Shown here: piece after piece, positions 11,279 to 18,430 of the stretch
Layout: every line of letters begins with the position of its first letter
How positions within the stretch are numbered: position 1 is the first letter of the stretch
IMG/VR virus record: IMGVR_UViG_3300047496_000083
Coordinates: 1-42,049 of that record
DNA length: 42,049 bases
DNA from: a virus
Reading direction: 5' to 3' (one strand)
Translations under genes and position numbers: made by a program
Notes under the pieces: generated by a model
Database searches by the model: none
The model's input: only the letters and a program-made list of their open reading frames with translations
Told to the model about the DNA's origin: nothing

Positions 11279-11593
11279 ATGAGTAGTCCATTAAAGTACG
11301 ACGCCAACATCAAGGAAGAGTTTGGCATTAAGAGTTCGCTTGACCTTGATGACCAATTAAAGTTAGGTTTTGTCCGTTCACAGTTCGATGAGCTTAAAAA
11401 AATGCTGTGGCGCACCAGAGTAGAACTTCAACTCGCAGAAGCCCAAACTAAAACAGAGGTAGAGGCTATGGCGGCCGACGCCCGAAATAAGATCGCCGCC
11501 CACCGAAACGACATTAAAGGTTATGTTCGAGGTCTTAACGTACTGCAAGGCTTCATAGATGAACTCGACACTAGCAATCGTACTTCCAAGTAG
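11279..11593 (+). CDS. Hypothetical coiled-coil protein
   Basis: ORF track; SD AAGGAG. Confidence 0.5.
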   Translation: MSSPLKYDANIKEEFGIKSSLDLDDQLKLGFVRSQFDELKKMLWRTRVELQLAEAQTKTEVEAMAADARNKIAAHRNDIKGYVRGLNVLQGFIDELDTSNRTSK

Positions 11594-12362
11594 GGGGTTA
11601 CTCTTTAGCAAGACCCTTGAAGATCTGTTAAGGGAGCTTAAGGGTTTTAAGTATAAGATCTTTTGGTCGCATGAAAGATCACTACCCGAGTGTTTTAATA
11701 TCCCCACCGAAGAGGCGTTAGCCGACCCAGAGGTATTCGCAGTACTATTCTGCGAGGATGACATGATACTGCCTAAAGGCATTCTGCAGGAGATGTTCGA
11801 TAAAAAATATCCTGTAGTAGCCTTGGACTACCCCTTTCAGCAAGACGGCGACGCTACCACCCTACACGACCCCGAAGGAATGGCGTTTTGGACAGGCACG
11901 GGCTTTATGCTCGTAGCAAGACAGATACTTGAAAACATCCCTAAACCTATCTGGCAAACTGGCAGGACGTTTGACCCCTTCGTAGACACCGATACGCTCC
12001 ACTTCTGGCCCAGAAAGCTGAATAAGACTTATTACGGATTACATGACCTAAACTTTGGCCTAACCCTTTACTCAGCTGGTGTTCCGATTATGGTTATGGA
12101 CAGAACCGCAGGACAGCACAAACTTAAGAAGATGGGCGGAATAAACACCAATATAGGGGCGCACGACATTTATGATCTAACCGAGGTAGGCAGGGATATA
12201 GTCAGTGGAATGGTAGACCAAGAAAACTCCAGTTTATTCTTAGGAGCACTTAATAGGGTTAAACATGTGAAGTTCTGGGAAGATATACCACCATTTATAT
12301 CTTATGACGACAAACAACAACCCTACCTGAATGATGGCAGAGAAGCGAGTGTGGTGAAATGA
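11559..12362 (+). CDS. GT-A-like glycosyltransferase, paralog 1
   Basis: IVLPSRGLLFSKT… plus an EDD (DxD-like) motif, CEDDMILP. Clear paralog of the 12490..13302 product. Confidence 0.55.
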   Translation: MNSTLAIVLPSRGLLFSKTLEDLLRELKGFKYKIFWSHERSLPECFNIPTEEALADPEVFAVLFCEDDMILPKGILQEMFDKKYPVVALDYPFQQDGDATTLHDPEGMAFWTGTGFMLVARQILENIPKPIWQTGRTFDPFVDTDTLHFWPRKLNKTYYGLHDLNFGLTLYSAGVPIMVMDRTAGQHKLKKMGGINTNIGAHDIYDLTEVGRDIVSGMVDQENSSLFLGALNRVKHVKFWEDIPPFISYDDKQQPYLNDGREASVVK

Positions 12363-12493
12363 CCGTTAATAAAAAACAACTCGAGAAGTTAAAATCAGAA
12401 TCTACATTCGTCAGATTCGATGGACATAAGTACGTTAAGGGCTTAGGAAGCTTAGTCGGTCTGTGGAATGGCGAAGAGGTGTATTTGAAGTGA
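12359..12493 (+). CDS. 44-aa micro-ORF coupled on both sides (below the track cutoff)
   Basis: ATGA overlap with the upstream stop and GTGA overlap with the downstream start. Hand translation: MTVNKKQLEKLKSESTFVRFDGHKYVKGLGSLVGLWNGEEVYLK. Confidence 0.4.
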   Translation: MTVNKKQLEKLKSESTFVRFDGHKYVKGLGSLVGLWNGEEVYLK

Positions 12494-13302
12494 AGATTGC
12501 AGTCATTTTCCCCTCTAGGGGGTTAGTGTTTAGCCGTACGGCGGAAGAACTCTTGAATAACCTTGAGGGCTATGAATACGACATCTTCTTCTCCCACGGG
12601 CTACCTATTCCAGATTGCTTTGAAAAACCTGTCCTAGAGGCCTTAAAAGACCCCACATACACACATTTATGGCTAGTAGAGGACGATATGATACTCCCAG
12701 ACGGAACGCTAGACTCCCTACTCATAATGGACGCCCCTGTAGCCACTATGGACTATCCTGTAAGTAAAGAAGGCCAAGGAACAGTCTTTGAGGTGGGTGG
12801 AAGAGTTATATTCTCGGGTACGGGCTGTCTTTTGATTAAACGAGAGGTATTTAACTTCCTGAATAAGCCTTACTTTAGGGCGGACGTTAAGTGGACACCA
12901 ACCAACTTTGGTAAGTTTATACGCTTTACCGCCTCAGAGAGCACCCGTCTAGACGCTTACGGGCTACATGACGTTACATTCGGCCTCAAGCTCTTTAAAG
13001 CCCAAATACCTATCTCAGTCGCTGGGACGATAGGCCAACGTAAACTCAAGGCTCTAGGTAAAGCTGGGACTAACGACGGCGCACACCAGATAGAGGAGTG
13101 GAATAAGGTTAAAAAAGACTTCCTGCTTAAGACCTACAAGAAATTCCCAGTCCAACCCACAGGCAAGTTAATAACTATCAAAACTCCTGAGGGCGAGATA
13201 ACCACTCACCCCGACTTCGCAAAGAAACTTATCGCCCAGAACAAAGCTACTGCCATGCCCAGACAGCCGTTTGTAGTGGATTACGGGGAGATACTGCTAT
13301 GA
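12490..13302 (+). CDS. GT-A-like glycosyltransferase, paralog 2 (track ORF starts at 12463; GTG at 12490 preferred)
   Basis: VKIAVIFPSRGLVFSRT…VEDDMILP…YGLHD…GQRKLK aligns with paralog 1 from its first residues. Confidence 0.55.
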   Translation: MKIAVIFPSRGLVFSRTAEELLNNLEGYEYDIFFSHGLPIPDCFEKPVLEALKDPTYTHLWLVEDDMILPDGTLDSLLIMDAPVATMDYPVSKEGQGTVFEVGGRVIFSGTGCLLIKREVFNFLNKPYFRADVKWTPTNFGKFIRFTASESTRLDAYGLHDVTFGLKLFKAQIPISVAGTIGQRKLKALGKAGTNDGAHQIEEWNKVKKDFLLKTYKKFPVQPTGKLITIKTPEGEITTHPDFAKKLIAQNKATAMPRQPFVVDYGEILL

Positions 13303-14030
13303 AACTACTTATATGCCTAATTACTTATAACCGTATGGAATATACGAAAAGAACCCTAAAATCCCTCAGATGGTGGTTAGGTGAAGAGACTGACTACTAC
13401 ATCATAGTCGTAGACAACGCCAGTACAGATGGAACCAAAAAGTACATAAAGGGGCTTGAAGAACGGGCCATGATAGATTCTTATATCTTAAATGATGAGA
13501 ATTACTATCCGGGTAAGGCTTGTAACATGGGCTGGGAAGAAGGGCTGAAACACTATGAAGCCACGCACTTAATGCGATTAGATAACGATATGGAGTTTAA
13601 AAAGGGCTGGTTTGATAAGGTAGAGGATTACTTTAGAGCTATACCAGAACTAGGCCAGTTAGGGCTTGACCATGAGGCTATAGAGGCTCCAGAGGCAGAT
13701 ATGCGTAAACGCACGATTAATGGAATGACTATTAATGAATGGCCCGGTTGTGTTGGCGGCCCATGTGTTATCCCTCGTTCTATCTGGGACTTTGGACTTA
13801 GATGGCCGGAAATGAAGTGGGACGATGATAGAAACTCGCCAGCCCAAGAAGACTCAGCTTTTAGCAGAGCAATCATGGACAGGGGCTATCTGGTCGGACA
13901 CGCCCAACCTGAAATAGCTAGAACTTTCGCCAATAAAAGTAACTGGCACGAACAGAAGGAGTATTACTTAAAGACTATGAGCGACAGGGGTTATCAAGAA
14001 CATGTAGACTACCTGAAAGGACTTAAATGA
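13299..14030 (+). CDS. Family-2-type glycosyltransferase
   Basis: LICLITYNRMEYTKRTLKSL…VVDNASTDGT is the canonical GT2 N-terminal signature; DND further on; ATGA coupling. Confidence 0.75.
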   Translation: MKLLICLITYNRMEYTKRTLKSLRWWLGEETDYYIIVVDNASTDGTKKYIKGLEERAMIDSYILNDENYYPGKACNMGWEEGLKHYEATHLMRLDNDMEFKKGWFDKVEDYFRAIPELGQLGLDHEAIEAPEADMRKRTINGMTINEWPGCVGGPCVIPRSIWDFGLRWPEMKWDDDRNSPAQEDSAFSRAIMDRGYLVGHAQPEIARTFANKSNWHEQKEYYLKTMSDRGYQEHVDYLKGLK

Positions 14031-14653
14031 AAGTATCAGTTTTACTTCCTACTAGAGAACGTGCTCAGATGTGCAAAGAAGCTATCGATAGTCTAGGCGA
14101 TGGTGATTTTGAAGTCTTACTTTACGTGGATACTGATGACCCCCAGATCAAAGCTTATAGAAGTTTGGCATCTAGAAAAGTGAAGGTTTTCGTAGAGGCT
14201 CGGTTAGGCTATGCGAACTTTCATAGAATGGTCAACTTCCTAGCCAAGAAAGCTAAAGGTGAATGGCTCCTCTTGTGGAATGATGATATGCGGATTATAG
14301 GTGATTGGACAGTTCCTGACGCCACAGACAAACCCCAAGTACTTAACTTTTGGGACCCAAATAATCAGGTGAATAACCTAGCACCAGTGATAAGCCGTAA
14401 GATGTACGAGATTATGGGACACTTCAGCCTATCTACCCACTGTGATTCATGGGTACAGGATATAGCTAACGAACTCGGTATACACGTTCCAGTCCACGGA
14501 GCACAGGTCCAACACCTTAGAGAGTCCTTGAATGATGCGACAAAGTCGCAAACACAACCAGTTTACGCCACTTCCAGCCCTGAGTATGATGGTTTAGAGA
14601 TGATGAAATTAAGAGAAATAGATAAGGAGAAATTACGTGAAAATCTACTATGA
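14027..14653 (+). CDS. GT-A-like glycosyltransferase
   Basis: VSVLLPTRERAQMCKEAIDSL…LLYVDTDD…WNDD; ATGA coupling. Confidence 0.5.
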   Translation: MKVSVLLPTRERAQMCKEAIDSLGDGDFEVLLYVDTDDPQIKAYRSLASRKVKVFVEARLGYANFHRMVNFLAKKAKGEWLLLWNDDMRIIGDWTVPDATDKPQVLNFWDPNNQVNNLAPVISRKMYEIMGHFSLSTHCDSWVQDIANELGIHVPVHGAQVQHLRESLNDATKSQTQPVYATSSPEYDGLEMMKLREIDKEKLRENLL

Positions 14654-15449
14654 CCAAGCGGCCGACGTGTACTGCCAGATGTCCCACGCACTTTTACAAG
14701 GCTTTCACCAACTGGGCCATGAGGTTCAAAGTAACGTATACAACTACCCGTTCATTAAATCTATCGACAATCCAGACGTTAGAATCGCCAGCACATCAGG
14801 CAATATAAGCGCCCTCTATATGCCCTGTGACATCTTTATAGATGGGCGGGATCAGGCTGACATACAGACCGACTTTCAAGACCATCCGCTTTACTTTAAA
14901 AGCAACGGTAGCGAGAAACTTAAACTCCCAGCCTGCATGATGCCCCAGAAGTACGTAAGTCCAGAAGCCCCCAGAACCACTGAGATTATCTTCTTAGCAG
15001 GACACTCAGACTTTGGACGAGAGCACCTACAAGAAATTATCCCAGCCTCATTCGTGGATGGAGACAACCTCCCACTGGTTCCGCAGTACCCAGCAACCTC
15101 TTGCAATATGTACTCCGCTAAATATTACGACGCTCTAGCCAGCGCCAAAATATCCGTTAACGCTCCCGGCGGGAGTGCTAATACTAAGAAGTTCCATGAA
15201 ATAACCTCGCACGGCTGTCTAACGTTAAACTTTATCCCGCCAACCTATCACCAAACCACCCCTGACGTTTTAGACCTAATACCTGAAGATCTTAACTTCC
15301 CAAGACACGCAGTCTTAAACTTCCGAAATAAGGACGAGTTTGACCAGATAATGAAAGATCCACCCTACCATTTAGCCTGGGAGACGTTTGAATGGGCGAT
15401 GAACTGGAATCCTAAAGCTATGGCAAGTTACGTGCTGGGAAAACTATGA
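14637..15449 (+). CDS. Possible GT-B / CgeB-like glycosyltransferase
   Basis: C-terminal …KISVNAPGGSANTKKFHEITSHGCLTLNF weakly resembles Glyco_trans_1_2-type motifs. GTG start with SD AAGGAGA. Confidence 0.3.
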   Translation: MKIYYDQAADVYCQMSHALLQGFHQLGHEVQSNVYNYPFIKSIDNPDVRIASTSGNISALYMPCDIFIDGRDQADIQTDFQDHPLYFKSNGSEKLKLPACMMPQKYVSPEAPRTTEIIFLAGHSDFGREHLQEIIPASFVDGDNLPLVPQYPATSCNMYSAKYYDALASAKISVNAPGGSANTKKFHEITSHGCLTLNFIPPTYHQTTPDVLDLIPEDLNFPRHAVLNFRNKDEFDQIMKDPPYHLAWETFEWAMNWNPKAMASYVLGKL

Positions 15450-16180
15450 TTATAGGTAAAGACGGCTACATAGGAAGTGATCTAGAACTAGAGACTGAGG
15501 ATATAATCCTACTCGCAGGCCACTCAAGCGTTAAGATGGCCCAGAACGACCCTGACGGTGCGTGGATTAATAACGTGGAGTTCTTCAGATCTACCCTTAG
15601 TCAGGCTGAAAAGCTTATCTACGCATCTTCAGCGACCGTATATGACGGTCTTACTAACCCGACTGAGGACAATAACGCTTTTAACTTATCCAACGTCTAC
15701 AACCTTACTAAGCACACGATAGACCAACTCGCCCTGCTATCTGGTAAGAAGGTCTATGGACTACGCTTTGCAACTGTTTGTGGCTGGAGTTCTAACCTAC
15801 GAGTAGATGTGATGCTTAATAAAATGGTCTATGACGCTATAAATACAGGGAAGGTTCTAGTCAAAAACCGCCACATAGAACGACCTATCCTCGGAATTAA
15901 AGACTGCCACAGGGCTATAAAACACTTCGTAGAGAACGATTTAGAACCCGGAATCTATAACCTAGCTTCCTTCACAGCTTCGATAGATGATATGGCTAAA
16001 TACGTCGCCCAAGAGTTTAACGCCGAAGTTGTCTATGATGAGTACGACAATATCCCAGCTTACGCTTACGGGATAAACTGCGATAAGGTTAAATTTACGA
16101 GTTTCAGGTTCGAGGAAACACTGGAAAGTGTCGTCGATAGTTTAAAACAACCCTTTAAGAAAGTAGGAGTTAGAGAATGA
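15446..16180 (+). CDS. Short NAD(P)-dependent sugar epimerase/reductase (SDR family)
   Basis: GKDGYIG (GxxGxxG) at the extreme N-terminus and YNLTK (YxxxK); ATGA coupling. Confidence 0.6.
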   Translation: MIIGKDGYIGSDLELETEDIILLAGHSSVKMAQNDPDGAWINNVEFFRSTLSQAEKLIYASSATVYDGLTNPTEDNNAFNLSNVYNLTKHTIDQLALLSGKKVYGLRFATVCGWSSNLRVDVMLNKMVYDAINTGKVLVKNRHIERPILGIKDCHRAIKHFVENDLEPGIYNLASFTASIDDMAKYVAQEFNAEVVYDEYDNIPAYAYGINCDKVKFTSFRFEETLESVVDSLKQPFKKVGVRE

Positions 16181-17256
16181 GAATAAGTTATAGTCCCGAT
16201 ACGTTCGATGTTTACGGAGAAGAAGAAATACAAGCAGTAGTTGACAGCCTGAGAGACGGCTGGCTTGCGCCCGGAAAACGAGTAAAGGAGTTTGAAGAGA
16301 AGGTCGCTAAGTTATTCGGTAAAAAATATGGGGTAATGGTCAATTCGGGTTCGAGTGCTAATCTTCTGGCGGCCGAAGAATTACAAGGCCCCGTAGTAAC
16401 CCCAGCCCTAACCTTTGTAACCACCTACTCATACCTTAAACAGCCTGTCTTAAAAGATGTAGAAGAGGGAACTTACCAGATTAAATTCGGAGACATTCCA
16501 CCCGATAACTTTTTCGTGCCTAACCTACTGGGTAATATACCCGACTGGAAGAGCGTTAAACGCTTCAACACCGTAATAGTAGAAGATTCCTGTGACGTTA
16601 TAACGGACGCCGGTAAGAATGTTTCGGACATCACTACTACAAGTTTCTACTCCACCCATATGATTACTGCCGCCGGAGCTGGTGGAATGATTATGTGCAA
16701 CGATGCAAACATGTACGAACGATTCTTAAGCAAGCGAGCGTGGGGACGGCCTGTAGTGGACGAAAAGGACTTCGATAGACGCTTTGCCGGAGATTACGAC
16801 CTTAAGTTTCTATTCGAGAACAAAGGCCACAACTTACAGCCTATCGAACTACAGGCCGCTTTCGGGCTAGTTCAACTAGAGAAGTTAGATGAGATTAAGG
16901 ACAAGCGTTGGCAGGTGTTTGGTAAGGTTTATGATTTCTTTGAGCAGTATGAGGACAGATTTATACTACCTATAAGCCGACAAGGGGCTAATTGGATGAA
17001 CTTCCCGCTCACGATACGTGAAGGTATAGACCGCAAAGAGTTCTGTCGCTACCTAGAGGAGAACGACATCCAAACCCGCCCAATCTTTAGTGGTAACATT
17101 ACCCGCCAACCAGCCTTCAAAGACCAAGGAGTTCAAGACTTCCCAGTAGCCGATAAGATAATGAAAGATGGAATCCTACTAGGTTGCCACCAAGGGCTAA
17201 CAGACGACCACCTAGATTACATGTTTAGTAAGGTAAAGGAGTATTTAGATGTCTAA
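16177..17256 (+). CDS. DegT/DnrJ/EryC1-family PLP sugar enzyme with His at the Schiff-base Lys position (possible 3-dehydratase)
   Basis: FEEKVAKLFGKKYGVMVNSGSSANLLA, VEDSCD, and SFYSTHMITAAGAGG (His161 where family aminotransferases have SFhxxK). Confidence 0.8.
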   Translation: MRISYSPDTFDVYGEEEIQAVVDSLRDGWLAPGKRVKEFEEKVAKLFGKKYGVMVNSGSSANLLAAEELQGPVVTPALTFVTTYSYLKQPVLKDVEEGTYQIKFGDIPPDNFFVPNLLGNIPDWKSVKRFNTVIVEDSCDVITDAGKNVSDITTTSFYSTHMITAAGAGGMIMCNDANMYERFLSKRAWGRPVVDEKDFDRRFAGDYDLKFLFENKGHNLQPIELQAAFGLVQLEKLDEIKDKRWQVFGKVYDFFEQYEDRFILPISRQGANWMNFPLTIREGIDRKEFCRYLEENDIQTRPIFSGNITRQPAFKDQGVQDFPVADKIMKDGILLGCHQGLTDDHLDYMFSKVKEYLDV

Positions 17257-18430
17257 GATAGGCTTCATTGGTTTAGGAAAATTAGGCTTACCAGTTGCTT
17301 TAGCGATTGAATCCAGAGGCCATCAGGTCGCAGGTTATGACATTAACCCAGAGGTTGCTAACTATGTTGAGAATAAATACTACCCGTTTCAGGAAATAGG
17401 CATCGAAGAACTACTAGAAAACACCAAACTAAAAGTTGTTAATAGCGTCCTTCAAATCGCCCGGGACACCGATATTATCTTCCTACCAGTACAAACACCC
17501 CACGAAGCGAGATTTGAGGGTACTCAGAGACTCCCAGAGGAACGAGCTGACTTCGACTACGATTTTCTTAAAGCCGCCATTACGGATGTAGTTGAGGCGT
17601 GTAAGACACTAAAAGTAAAACGAACCCTAGTGGTGATTTCCACATGCCTGCCTGGAACCTTCAAGCGTGAGCTTAAACCCCTGCTTAATGAGTATGTGGA
17701 TTATGTCTATAGCCCCCAGTTTATAGCGATGGGCCAGGTCATAGATGACTATCTTAACCCAGAGTTTAACCTTATAGGGGTGGAAAGTGAAAAAGCCGCC
17801 GACCAACTAGAAAAGTTCTATAAGACTATAAATGATGCCCCTAACGTCAGAACAGACATCACCACAGCCGAAGGGATAAAAGTCTCCTATAACACATGGA
17901 TCACCGCCAAGACAGTCATAGCTAACGCTTGGGGCGAACTATCAGATAAACTCGGTATGAACTTCGACGACATATATAAAGCGTGGTCATTATCCACTAA
18001 ACGTCTTATCTCGCCTAGGTACATGAAGGCTGGTATGGGGGATGGTGGGGGTTGCCATCCAAGAGACAATATCGCCCTGTCACACCTAGCTAGCGAGGTT
18101 GGACTGTCGCATAACATCTTTGAAGACCTAATGGAAGCCAGAGAAGACTTTGAAGACTATCATGCCCGTCAAGCGATGGAAGCATCTAAGAAATCCGGAC
18201 TACCACTAGTAATATTGGGGCGGTCTTTCAAACCCGAGACACAGATCGAGACTGGAAGTCCAGCTATCTTAATGGCTAATCTGTTAAAAGAGTATGGTTA
18301 TCCGTTTGAGCACGTTGAAGACCTACCAGAATATAAGAAGGCCGTCTATTTCATCGCCACCAACCACGAACGCTATAAAGACATAGATTTTCCTGAAGGT
18401 AGCGTACTGATAATCCCCTTTCAAGGATAA
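17249..18430 (+). CDS. Nucleotide-sugar dehydrogenase (UDP-glucose/GDP-mannose dehydrogenase family)
   Basis: IGFIGLGKLGLPVALAI Rossmann motif and GMGDGGGCHPRDN catalytic-Cys motif. Confidence 0.8.
   Translation: MSKIGFIGLGKLGLPVALAIESRGHQVAGYDINPEVANYVENKYYPFQEIGIEELLENTKLKVVNSVLQIARDTDIIFLPVQTPHEARFEGTQRLPEERADFDYDFLKAAITDVVEACKTLKVKRTLVVISTCLPGTFKRELKPLLNEYVDYVYSPQFIAMGQVIDDYLNPEFNLIGVESEKAADQLEKFYKTINDAPNVRTDITTAEGIKVSYNTWITAKTVIANAWGELSDKLGMNFDDIYKAWSLSTKRLISPRYMKAGMGDGGGCHPRDNIALSHLASEVGLSHNIFEDLMEAREDFEDYHARQAMEASKKSGLPLVILGRSFKPETQIETGSPAILMANLLKEYGYPFEHVEDLPEYKKAVYFIATNHERYKDIDFPEGSVLIIPFQG

What the first reader, a model, noticed from the sequence alone, without database searches (positions are those of the whole stretch)
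16177..17256. DegT-family enzyme with His in place of the PLP-binding Lys, pointing to a sugar 3-dehydratase
The ORF has the DegT/DnrJ/EryC1 signatures (VNSGSSANLLA, VEDSCD). However, the motif that reads S-F-h-x-x-K-x-I-T in aminotransferases reads SFYSTHMITAAGAGG here, with His at residue 161 by my count.

In this fold, replacement of the Schiff-base Lys by His is the hallmark of the PMP-dependent 3-dehydratases: ColD in GDP-colitose synthesis and E1/RfbH in CDP-3,6-dideoxyhexose synthesis.

Together with the adjacent short SDR reductase/epimerase, this would predict that the phage makes a 3,6-dideoxyhexose-type sugar. That would be unusual phage cargo. No 4,6-dehydratase is evident, so the substrate may come from the host.
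Basis: partly seen in the sequence, partly recalled or inferred. Interest (0 to 1): 0.65.

Follow-up and report, generated by a model that had tools for sequence, protein, structure and literature searches.

The report
Phage sugar 3-dehydratase lacking iron-sulfur site
A complete 42-kb phage genome from a moss metagenome carries a well-conserved enzyme that most likely removes the 3-hydroxyl from an activated sugar taken from its host, to build an unusual deoxysugar for a phage-encoded glycan. Genes of this type turn out to be common on viral contigs, so the find is solid but not exceptional.

Summary
**Observation: confirmed.** ORF 16177-17256 (+, 359 aa) is a DegT/DnrJ/EryC1 protein. His161 (CAT, 16657-16659) lies in the column of the Schiff-base Lys of ArnB and WecE, and of the catalytic His220 of Yersinia E1.

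**Interpretation: mostly right, with three corrections.**

1. **Not an E1/RfbH orthologue.**
   - E1 is the closest solved structure (E 5.6e-47; Foldseek TM 0.89).
   - The loop carrying three of E1's four [2Fe-2S] cysteines is deleted, here and in the 120 nearest homologues.
   - The NCBIfam RfbH score is 210.8 against a cutoff of 423.
   - The complete genome encodes no E3-like reductase.
   - The protein therefore probably works like ColD, regenerating PMP with glutamate. This is inferred, not shown.

2. **Probable substrate is dTDP-4-keto-6-deoxyglucose taken from the host.**
   - The nearest cellular homologues (56-59% identity, Actinomycetota) sit in rml-like operons.
   - The complete phage genome has no 4,6-dehydratase and no nucleotidyltransferase.

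3. **Not unusual viral cargo.**
   - At least 587 IMG/VR contigs encode relatives.
   - Cyanophages already carry both E1-type and ColD-type versions.

**Context.** The gene lies in a conserved cassette between the capsid and tail genes: glycosyltransferases, a short SDR and a nucleotide-sugar dehydrogenase. That placement suggests virion glycosylation.

**Verdict.** A new member of a known kind, of moderate interest.

The parts
16177..17256 (+). DegT-fold, His-for-Lys enzyme (359 aa). Predicted PMP-dependent NDP-4-keto-6-deoxyhexose 3-dehydratase of an E1-related clade that lacks the Fe-S ligands.
   Evidence: - Pfam PF01041 at 166 bits.
- PDB sequence search: E1 at 5.6e-47, ColD at 1e-27.
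- AF2 model pLDDT 93.3. Foldseek top hit E1 3bcx, TM 0.89.
- dN/dS 0.06.
16657..16659 (+). Codon CAT for His161, in the column of the aminotransferase Schiff-base Lys and of E1 His220. Predicted general base.
   Evidence: His is invariant in the 120 nearest homologues and present in 150 of the 151 sequences aligned (150 representatives plus the query).
16582..16596 (+). E136-D137-S138-C139-D140.
- D137 corresponds to the cofactor N1-binding Asp (E1 D191).
- C139 corresponds to E1 C193, the only Fe-S ligand retained. ColD also has a Cys here.
- D140 corresponds to E1 D194, which is His or Gln in aminotransferases.
   Evidence: Alignments. D137, S138, C139 and D140 are invariant in the 43-sequence alignment.
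16741..16800 (+). Residues 189-208 (WGRPVVDEKDFDRRFAGDYD). This short loop replaces E1's Cys-rich loop RDCYCAPGCDNTCKKRFG (C251, C253, C261). It contains no Cys.
15446..16180 (+). Short extended SDR (244 aa).
- GxxGxxG and the Ser61/Tyr85/Lys89 triad are kept.
- About 50 residues (beta2-beta3) are missing relative to relatives of about 300 aa.
- Predicted NDP-4-keto-sugar C4 reductase.
- Overlaps the dehydratase start by 4 nt.
   Evidence: - Pfam Epimerase at 2.3e-10.
- Alignment.
- AF2 pLDDT 93.7.
- Foldseek neighbours: Cj1427, CDP-glucitol reductase, Rmd.
- Conserved in sister phages next to RmlC or C-methyltransferase genes.
17249..18430 (+). Nucleotide-sugar 6-dehydrogenase (393 aa) with the catalytic Cys motif GGGCHPRD. 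Predicted supplier of a uronic acid. Overlaps the dehydratase stop by 8 nt.
   Evidence: - Pfam UDPG_MGDP_dh_N and central domain.
- NCBIfam NDP-sugDHase at 185.5 bits against a cutoff of 189.8.
- PDB best hit GDP-mannose 6-dehydrogenase, 4e-32.
- PHROG 9148.
13299..14030 (+). GT2 glycosyltransferase (243 aa).
   Evidence: Pfam Glycos_transf_2 at 1.3e-13.
14027..14653 (+). GT2-like glycosyltransferase (208 aa).
   Evidence: Pfam match at 0.002, below the cutoff. PHROG 14945 glycosyltransferase at 1.2e-9.
11559..13302 (+). Two paralogous ORFs (11559-12362 and 12463-13302, 39% identity) of unknown family. Their N-termini look GT-A-like by eye. They belong to the conserved cassette.
   Evidence: Paralogy. 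No Pfam or PHROG match for either, and no PDB match for 12463-13302, the only one searched. Syntenic in L001 and L003.
14637..15449 (+). 270-aa ORFan of the cassette, function unknown.
   Evidence: No Pfam, PHROG or PDB match. Only 3 homologues, all on contigs of 3.6-36 kb, two of which match contig lengths already seen for sister-phage cassette proteins. Also conserved in L001 and L003.

Best explanation
**What it is.** ORF 16177-17256 encodes a PMP-dependent nucleotide-sugar 3-dehydratase. It belongs to a large, uncharacterised clade that is related to E1 (RfbH/DdhC/AscC) but has no [2Fe-2S] site.

**Proposed mechanism.** The chemistry follows established ColD and E1 work. That it applies here is inferred.
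1. Non-covalently bound PLP is converted to PMP by L-glutamate.
2. PMP forms a ketimine with C4 of an NDP-4-keto-6-deoxyhexose.
3. His161 removes a C4' proton and the 3-OH leaves, giving a 3,4-hexoseen adduct.
4. With no Fe-S cluster and no reductase, the adduct is hydrolysed as in ColD. The products are NDP-4-keto-3,6-dideoxyhexose, ammonia and PLP.

**Substrate.** It is most likely dTDP-4-keto-6-deoxy-D-glucose drawn from the host's RmlA/RmlB. The complete phage genome has neither a nucleotidyltransferase nor a 4,6-dehydratase.

**Downstream steps.**
- The upstream short SDR then reduces C4, giving a 3,6-dideoxy-D-hexose of paratose or abequose configuration. No epimerase is present.
- The neighbouring glycosyltransferases add this sugar to an acceptor, together with a uronic acid made by the downstream dehydrogenase.
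- The acceptor is probably a virion protein, because the cassette lies between the capsid and adaptor genes.
For: **Shown**
- His lies in the Lys column.
- The four E1-versus-aminotransferase discriminating positions are dehydratase-type: D140, Y158, H161 and M274. ArnB and WecE have H/Q, H, K and H there.
- The closest solved structures are E1, then ColD.
- The Fe-S loop is absent here and in the 120 nearest homologues. It is also absent in the nearest 33 of the 150 library representatives.
- A rough NJ tree places the protein in a 50-member clade that is entirely His-bearing and Fe-S-less. Fe-S forms are the next relatives out and ColD lies further out.
- The gene is under strong purifying selection.

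**Context**
- Cellular homologues at 56-59% identity sit between an RmlB-like 4,6-dehydratase and an RmlD. An RmlA-like nucleotidyltransferase follows, and in one case an RmlC domain is fused.
- 48 of the 80 best IMG/VR loci have an RmlB-like 4,6-dehydratase within 8 kb.
- More distant homologues lie next to TPP-dependent enzymes. From my own knowledge, the TPP enzyme YerE uses the E1 product in yersiniose synthesis.
- No Fer2/FAD E3-like gene appears in any of 5 cellular contexts or in the phage.
- Sister phages pair the same SDR with RmlC or with NDP-sugar C-methyltransferases. These also act on 4-keto-6-deoxy sugars, and again no 4,6-dehydratase is present.

**Literature.** His-for-Lys and the Fe-S/ColD dichotomy are reviewed in PMC8987622. 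Glutamate-dependent C3-dehydratase assays are in PMC10440746.
Against: - No member of this Fe-S-less, E1-related clade has been assayed, as far as my searches show.
- Glutamate-driven turnover is inferred only from the missing cluster.
- Overall sequence is closer to E1 (163.6 bits) than to ColD (99.7 bits). E1 is reported not to transaminate.
- Two Cys (C139, C337) are conserved in the clade. An unconventional metal site cannot be excluded from sequence alone.
- The nucleotide moiety and the C4 stereochemistry are not determined.
- The SDR's nearest structure is a C4-dehydrogenase (Cj1427), so the direction of its reaction is uncertain.
- The SDR is not an orthologue of the RmlD in the cellular operons.
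- The acceptor of the glycan is unknown.
Confidence: 0.68

Rival explanations
1. It is a true E1/RfbH-type dehydrase. It reduces the PMP-hexoseen adduct by electron transfer and uses host reductases, as SpnQ does with ferredoxin or flavodoxin systems.
For: E1 is the best sequence and structure match. The C193 equivalent (C139) is kept. SpnQ shows that a dedicated E3 is not obligatory (PMC8987622).
Against: - Three of the four cluster ligands (C251, C253, C261) and their loop are deleted.
- Only two Cys columns are at least 75% conserved in the clade.
- The RfbH equivalog score is half the cutoff.
- ColD also has the C139-equivalent Cys without a cluster.
Confidence: 0.07
2. It is a sugar aminotransferase or a transaminating variant. 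It uses non-covalently bound PLP/PMP to make a 4-amino-4,6-dideoxy sugar rather than a 3-deoxy sugar.
For: The fold and most cofactor-binding motifs are those of DegT aminotransferases. SpnQ transaminates when no reductase is present (PMC8987622). PHROG and NCBI sources name relatives 'aminotransferase'.
Against: - The family has no conserved Lys.
- The aminotransferase-type His residues at the E1 D194, Y217 and F345 positions are all absent.
- E1 and ColD are reported not to transaminate.
- No N-acyltransferase or formyltransferase was seen next to it in the loci examined, although such genes usually accompany amino-sugar pathways.
Confidence: 0.1
3. The dehydrogenase, SDR and DegT-His trio is a self-contained pathway needing no 4,6-dehydratase, by analogy with Ugd-ArnA-ArnB.
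1. NDP-hexose is oxidised to the uronic acid.
2. The SDR oxidises C4, with or without decarboxylation.
3. The His enzyme removes the 3-OH of that 4-keto sugar.

The product would be a 3-deoxy pentose or a 3-deoxy hexuronate, not a 3,6-dideoxyhexose.
For: - The three genes overlap and are co-inherited in all four sister phages examined.
- No 4,6-dehydratase is present in the complete genome.
- The SDR's nearest solved structure is the C4-dehydrogenase Cj1427.
Against: - The same SDR family occurs in other sister phages without the dehydrogenase. There it sits beside RmlC or C-methyltransferases, which fits a 4-ketoreductase of 6-deoxy sugars.
- The SDR shows no specific similarity to ArnA or UXS.
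- Cellular and viral relatives of the His enzyme co-occur with 4,6-dehydratases.
- No final reductase would remain in the pathway.
Confidence: 0.1
4. It is a decayed or non-catalytic relic carried along in the cassette.
For: It is shorter than most relatives (359 aa against about 400). No biochemical data exist.
Against: dN/dS is 0.06. 47 positions are invariant across 43 sequences, including all cofactor motifs. The model is confident. The gene is kept in four sister phages.
Confidence: 0.03

Closest known systems
E1 (CDP-6-deoxy-L-threo-D-glycero-4-hexulose 3-dehydrase; AscC/DdhC/RfbH) of Yersinia pseudotuberculosis, PDB 3bcx
   Same: - Best sequence match (E 5.6e-47, 32% identity) and best structure match (TM 0.89).
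- His in the Lys position.
- D194, Y217 and C193 equivalents are kept.
- Same predicted first half-reaction: PMP ketimine, then His-driven 3-OH elimination.
   Different: - Lacks the C251/C253/C261 loop, so it has no [2Fe-2S] site.
- No E3 reductase.
- Fails the NCBIfam RfbH cutoff.
- About 40-80 residues shorter.
- The genomic context of relatives is dTDP/rml-like rather than CDP-glucose.
ColD (GDP-4-keto-6-deoxy-D-mannose 3-dehydratase) of E. coli O55, PDB 2gms/3b8x, and the C. jejuni GDP-heptose C3-dehydratases
   Same: His for Lys, no Fe-S cluster, no partner reductase. It is therefore the most likely mechanistic model: glutamate-regenerated PMP with hydrolytic release of the product.
   Different: - Only 24-29% identity.
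- Falls in a separate clade in the NJ tree.
- The motif is SFYSTH, with the spacing of E1 and the aminotransferases, against SFYSHH in ColD.
- No Gmd or ColC-type neighbours.
- Glutamate dependence is untested.
SpnQ (TDP-4-keto-2,6-dideoxyglucose 3-dehydrase, spinosyn pathway)
   Same: It is a dTDP-linked substrate class and has no dedicated E3.
   Different: SpnQ binds a [2Fe-2S] cluster and needs ferredoxin or flavodoxin reductase systems (PMC8987622). The phage protein has no cluster motif.
Cyanophage and metagenomic viral 3-dehydratase-like genes (S-H68, S-CAM7, ACG-2014f, IMG/VR contigs)
   Same: They are virus-encoded His-for-Lys DegT proteins inside sugar or glycosyltransferase clusters. 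The best 80 IMG/VR relatives are likewise Fe-S-less.
   Different: - S-H68, AG-345-D19 and LR756502 carry the Cys loop.
- S-CAM7 and ACG-2014f are ColD-type, next to a Gmd- and an fcl-like gene.
- Most encode their own 4,6-dehydratase.
- Identity to the window protein is at most 46%.
Mycobacteriophage virion glycosylation (Freeman et al. 2023; seen only as a reference in PMC12801897, paper not readable here)
   Same: Glycosyltransferase genes lie beside structural genes. This suggests modification of capsid or tail proteins.
   Different: As I recall them, those phages carry glycosyltransferases but no sugar-tailoring enzymes such as a 3-dehydratase. Glycosylation of this phage's virion is not shown.

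Membership tests
DegT/DnrJ/EryC1 (fold-type I sugar PLP/PMP enzymes) | Pfam PF01041 match above the gathering score | tested here: met
   166.2 bits against a cutoff of 19.8, covering residues 14-353.
DegT/DnrJ/EryC1 (fold-type I sugar PLP/PMP enzymes) | Aspartate-aminotransferase-like fold with the cofactor N1-binding Asp and a Ser/Gly phosphate loop | tested here: met
   AF2 pLDDT 93.3. All 50 top Foldseek hits are DegT-family enzymes. N56-S57-G58-S59 and D137 are invariant.
NDP-sugar 3-dehydratases (E1, ColD, SpnQ) | His replaces the Schiff-base Lys | tested here: met
   His161 lies in the column of the ArnB and WecE Lys and of E1 His220. No conserved Lys lies nearby.
NDP-sugar 3-dehydratases (E1, ColD, SpnQ) | Dehydratase-type residues at the positions whose mutation converts E1 to an aminotransferase (D194, Y217, F345; named from my own knowledge of Smith et al. 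2008) | tested here: met
   The phage protein has D140, Y158 and M274. ArnB and WecE have H/Q, H and H.
NDP-sugar 3-dehydratases (E1, ColD, SpnQ) | Genomic association with an NDP-hexose 4,6-dehydratase, which makes the substrate | tested here: inconclusive
   Absent from the complete phage genome. Present next to the closest cellular homologues and in 48 of the 80 best viral loci.
NDP-sugar 3-dehydratases (E1, ColD, SpnQ) | C3 deoxygenation activity on an NDP-4-keto sugar | not testable with these tools
   Needs an enzyme assay.
E1 / RfbH / DdhC / AscC | [2Fe-2S] binding motif C-X57-C-X1-C-X7-C (E1 C193, C251, C253, C261) | tested here: not met
   Only the C193 equivalent (C139) is present. 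The loop with the other three is deleted.
E1 / RfbH / DdhC / AscC | NCBIfam equivalog NF011936 (RfbH) above its cutoff | tested here: not met
   210.8 bits against a cutoff of 423.
E1 / RfbH / DdhC / AscC | Partner E3 (Fe-S flavoprotein reductase) and CDP-glucose pathway genes | tested here: not met
   - No Fer2, FAD or NAD-reductase domain in any of the 41 window ORFs scanned, which include every ORF of at least 200 aa.
- None in 5 cellular contexts.
- Neighbours of the closest homologues score best as RmlA, RmlB and RmlD, not as the CDP-glucose enzymes.
ColD | His-for-Lys enzyme without an Fe-S cluster | tested here: met
ColD | Closest sequence relationship to ColD, and a Gmd/ColC (GDP-mannose) context | tested here: not met
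   ColD scores 99.7 bits against 163.6 for E1 and lies further out in the NJ tree. No Gmd- or fcl-like gene is present.
ColD | PMP regenerated from PLP by L-glutamate, with product released by hydrolysis and ammonia | not testable with these tools
   Inferred only from the absence of a cluster and of a reductase.
Extended SDR NDP-sugar C4 oxidoreductases (the neighbouring ORF 15446-16180) | Gly-rich dinucleotide motif and a Ser/Thr-Tyr-Lys triad | tested here: met
   G4xxG7xxG10, and S61, Y85 and K89 invariant in 43 sequences. About 50 Rossmann-fold residues are missing. Whether it acts as a reductase or an oxidase is not determined.

The most novel reading that the evidence does not exclude
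The co-inherited, overlapping trio of short SDR, His-DegT and nucleotide-sugar 6-dehydrogenase is a self-contained three-enzyme route with no 4,6-dehydratase.
1. The dehydrogenase makes an NDP-hexuronate.
2. The minimal SDR, whose nearest structure is the C4-dehydrogenase Cj1427, makes the 4-keto intermediate, with or without decarboxylation.
3. The Fe-S-less His enzyme removes the 3-OH.

The product would be a 3-deoxy pentose or 3-deoxy uronic acid not yet described in any glycan. The phage would then attach it to its own virion.
Probability: 0.1. Interest if true: 0.75.

Novelty: new member of a known kind. Interest (0 to 1): 0.42.

Why it matters
**Enzymology.** The protein marks a very large, untested branch of sugar 3-dehydratases.
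- 103 of the 150 best 50%-identity representatives lack the Fe-S motif.
- The branch occurs in Actinomycetota, candidate-phyla bacteria, phages and giant-virus bins.
- It is E1-like in sequence but cannot use E1's electron-transfer chemistry.
- One assay would show whether ColD-type glutamate-driven deoxygenation arose, or persisted, inside the E1 lineage.
- That result would also correct the widespread 'RfbH', 'E1' and 'aminotransferase' annotations.

**Phage biology.** A family of SU10-like phages of about 40 kb keeps a swappable sugar-tailoring module between the capsid and tail genes.
- The module holds a 3-dehydratase, a C-methyltransferase or an RmlC-like epimerase.
- It always holds the same minimal SDR and never a 4,6-dehydratase.
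- This implies the phages tap the host's 4-keto-6-deoxy sugar pool to diversify a glycan, plausibly on the virion.

This would extend phage virion glycosylation from simple sugars to rare deoxysugars. It may bear on adsorption, stability or recognition.

Tried and rejected
- **Primary papers.** The papers on E1 (PMC2782820), SpnQ (PMC2515268) and ColD (PMC2242600), and Freeman et al. (PMC10527164), are not held. The exact E1 ligand numbering therefore rests on my own knowledge. It is cross-checked by the spacing C193-X57-C251-X1-C253-X7-C261 in the 3bcx sequence.
- **Host search.** The genome-contig scan with the single protein found only remote relatives of 24-30% identity and named no host.
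- **Nucleotide search.** blastn of the cassette against INPHARED gave only a 62-nt match to the Pelagibacter phage HTVC008M dehydrogenase gene. That gene's neighbourhood has no DegT.
- **Unassigned cassette ORFs.** The three unassigned ORFs gave no Pfam or PHROG match, and the two searched against PDB sequences (14637-15449 and 12463-13302) gave none. The last homology search showed that the 270-aa ORF is an ORFan. None has an SDR dinucleotide-binding motif by eye, so I do not regard them as hidden 4,6-dehydratases.
- **Missing pathway genes.** tblastn of RmlA, RmlB, RmlD, Gmd, fcl, ArnA and the L002 enzymes against the window found nothing at E up to 1.
- **Failed scripts.** A first MAFFT run on the representatives timed out. 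A first column map was shifted by 3 residues because hmmalign trimmed the sequence. Both were corrected.
- **Rejected as sequencing error.** The CAT codon needs at least two changes to become Lys, and the His is conserved in every relative.
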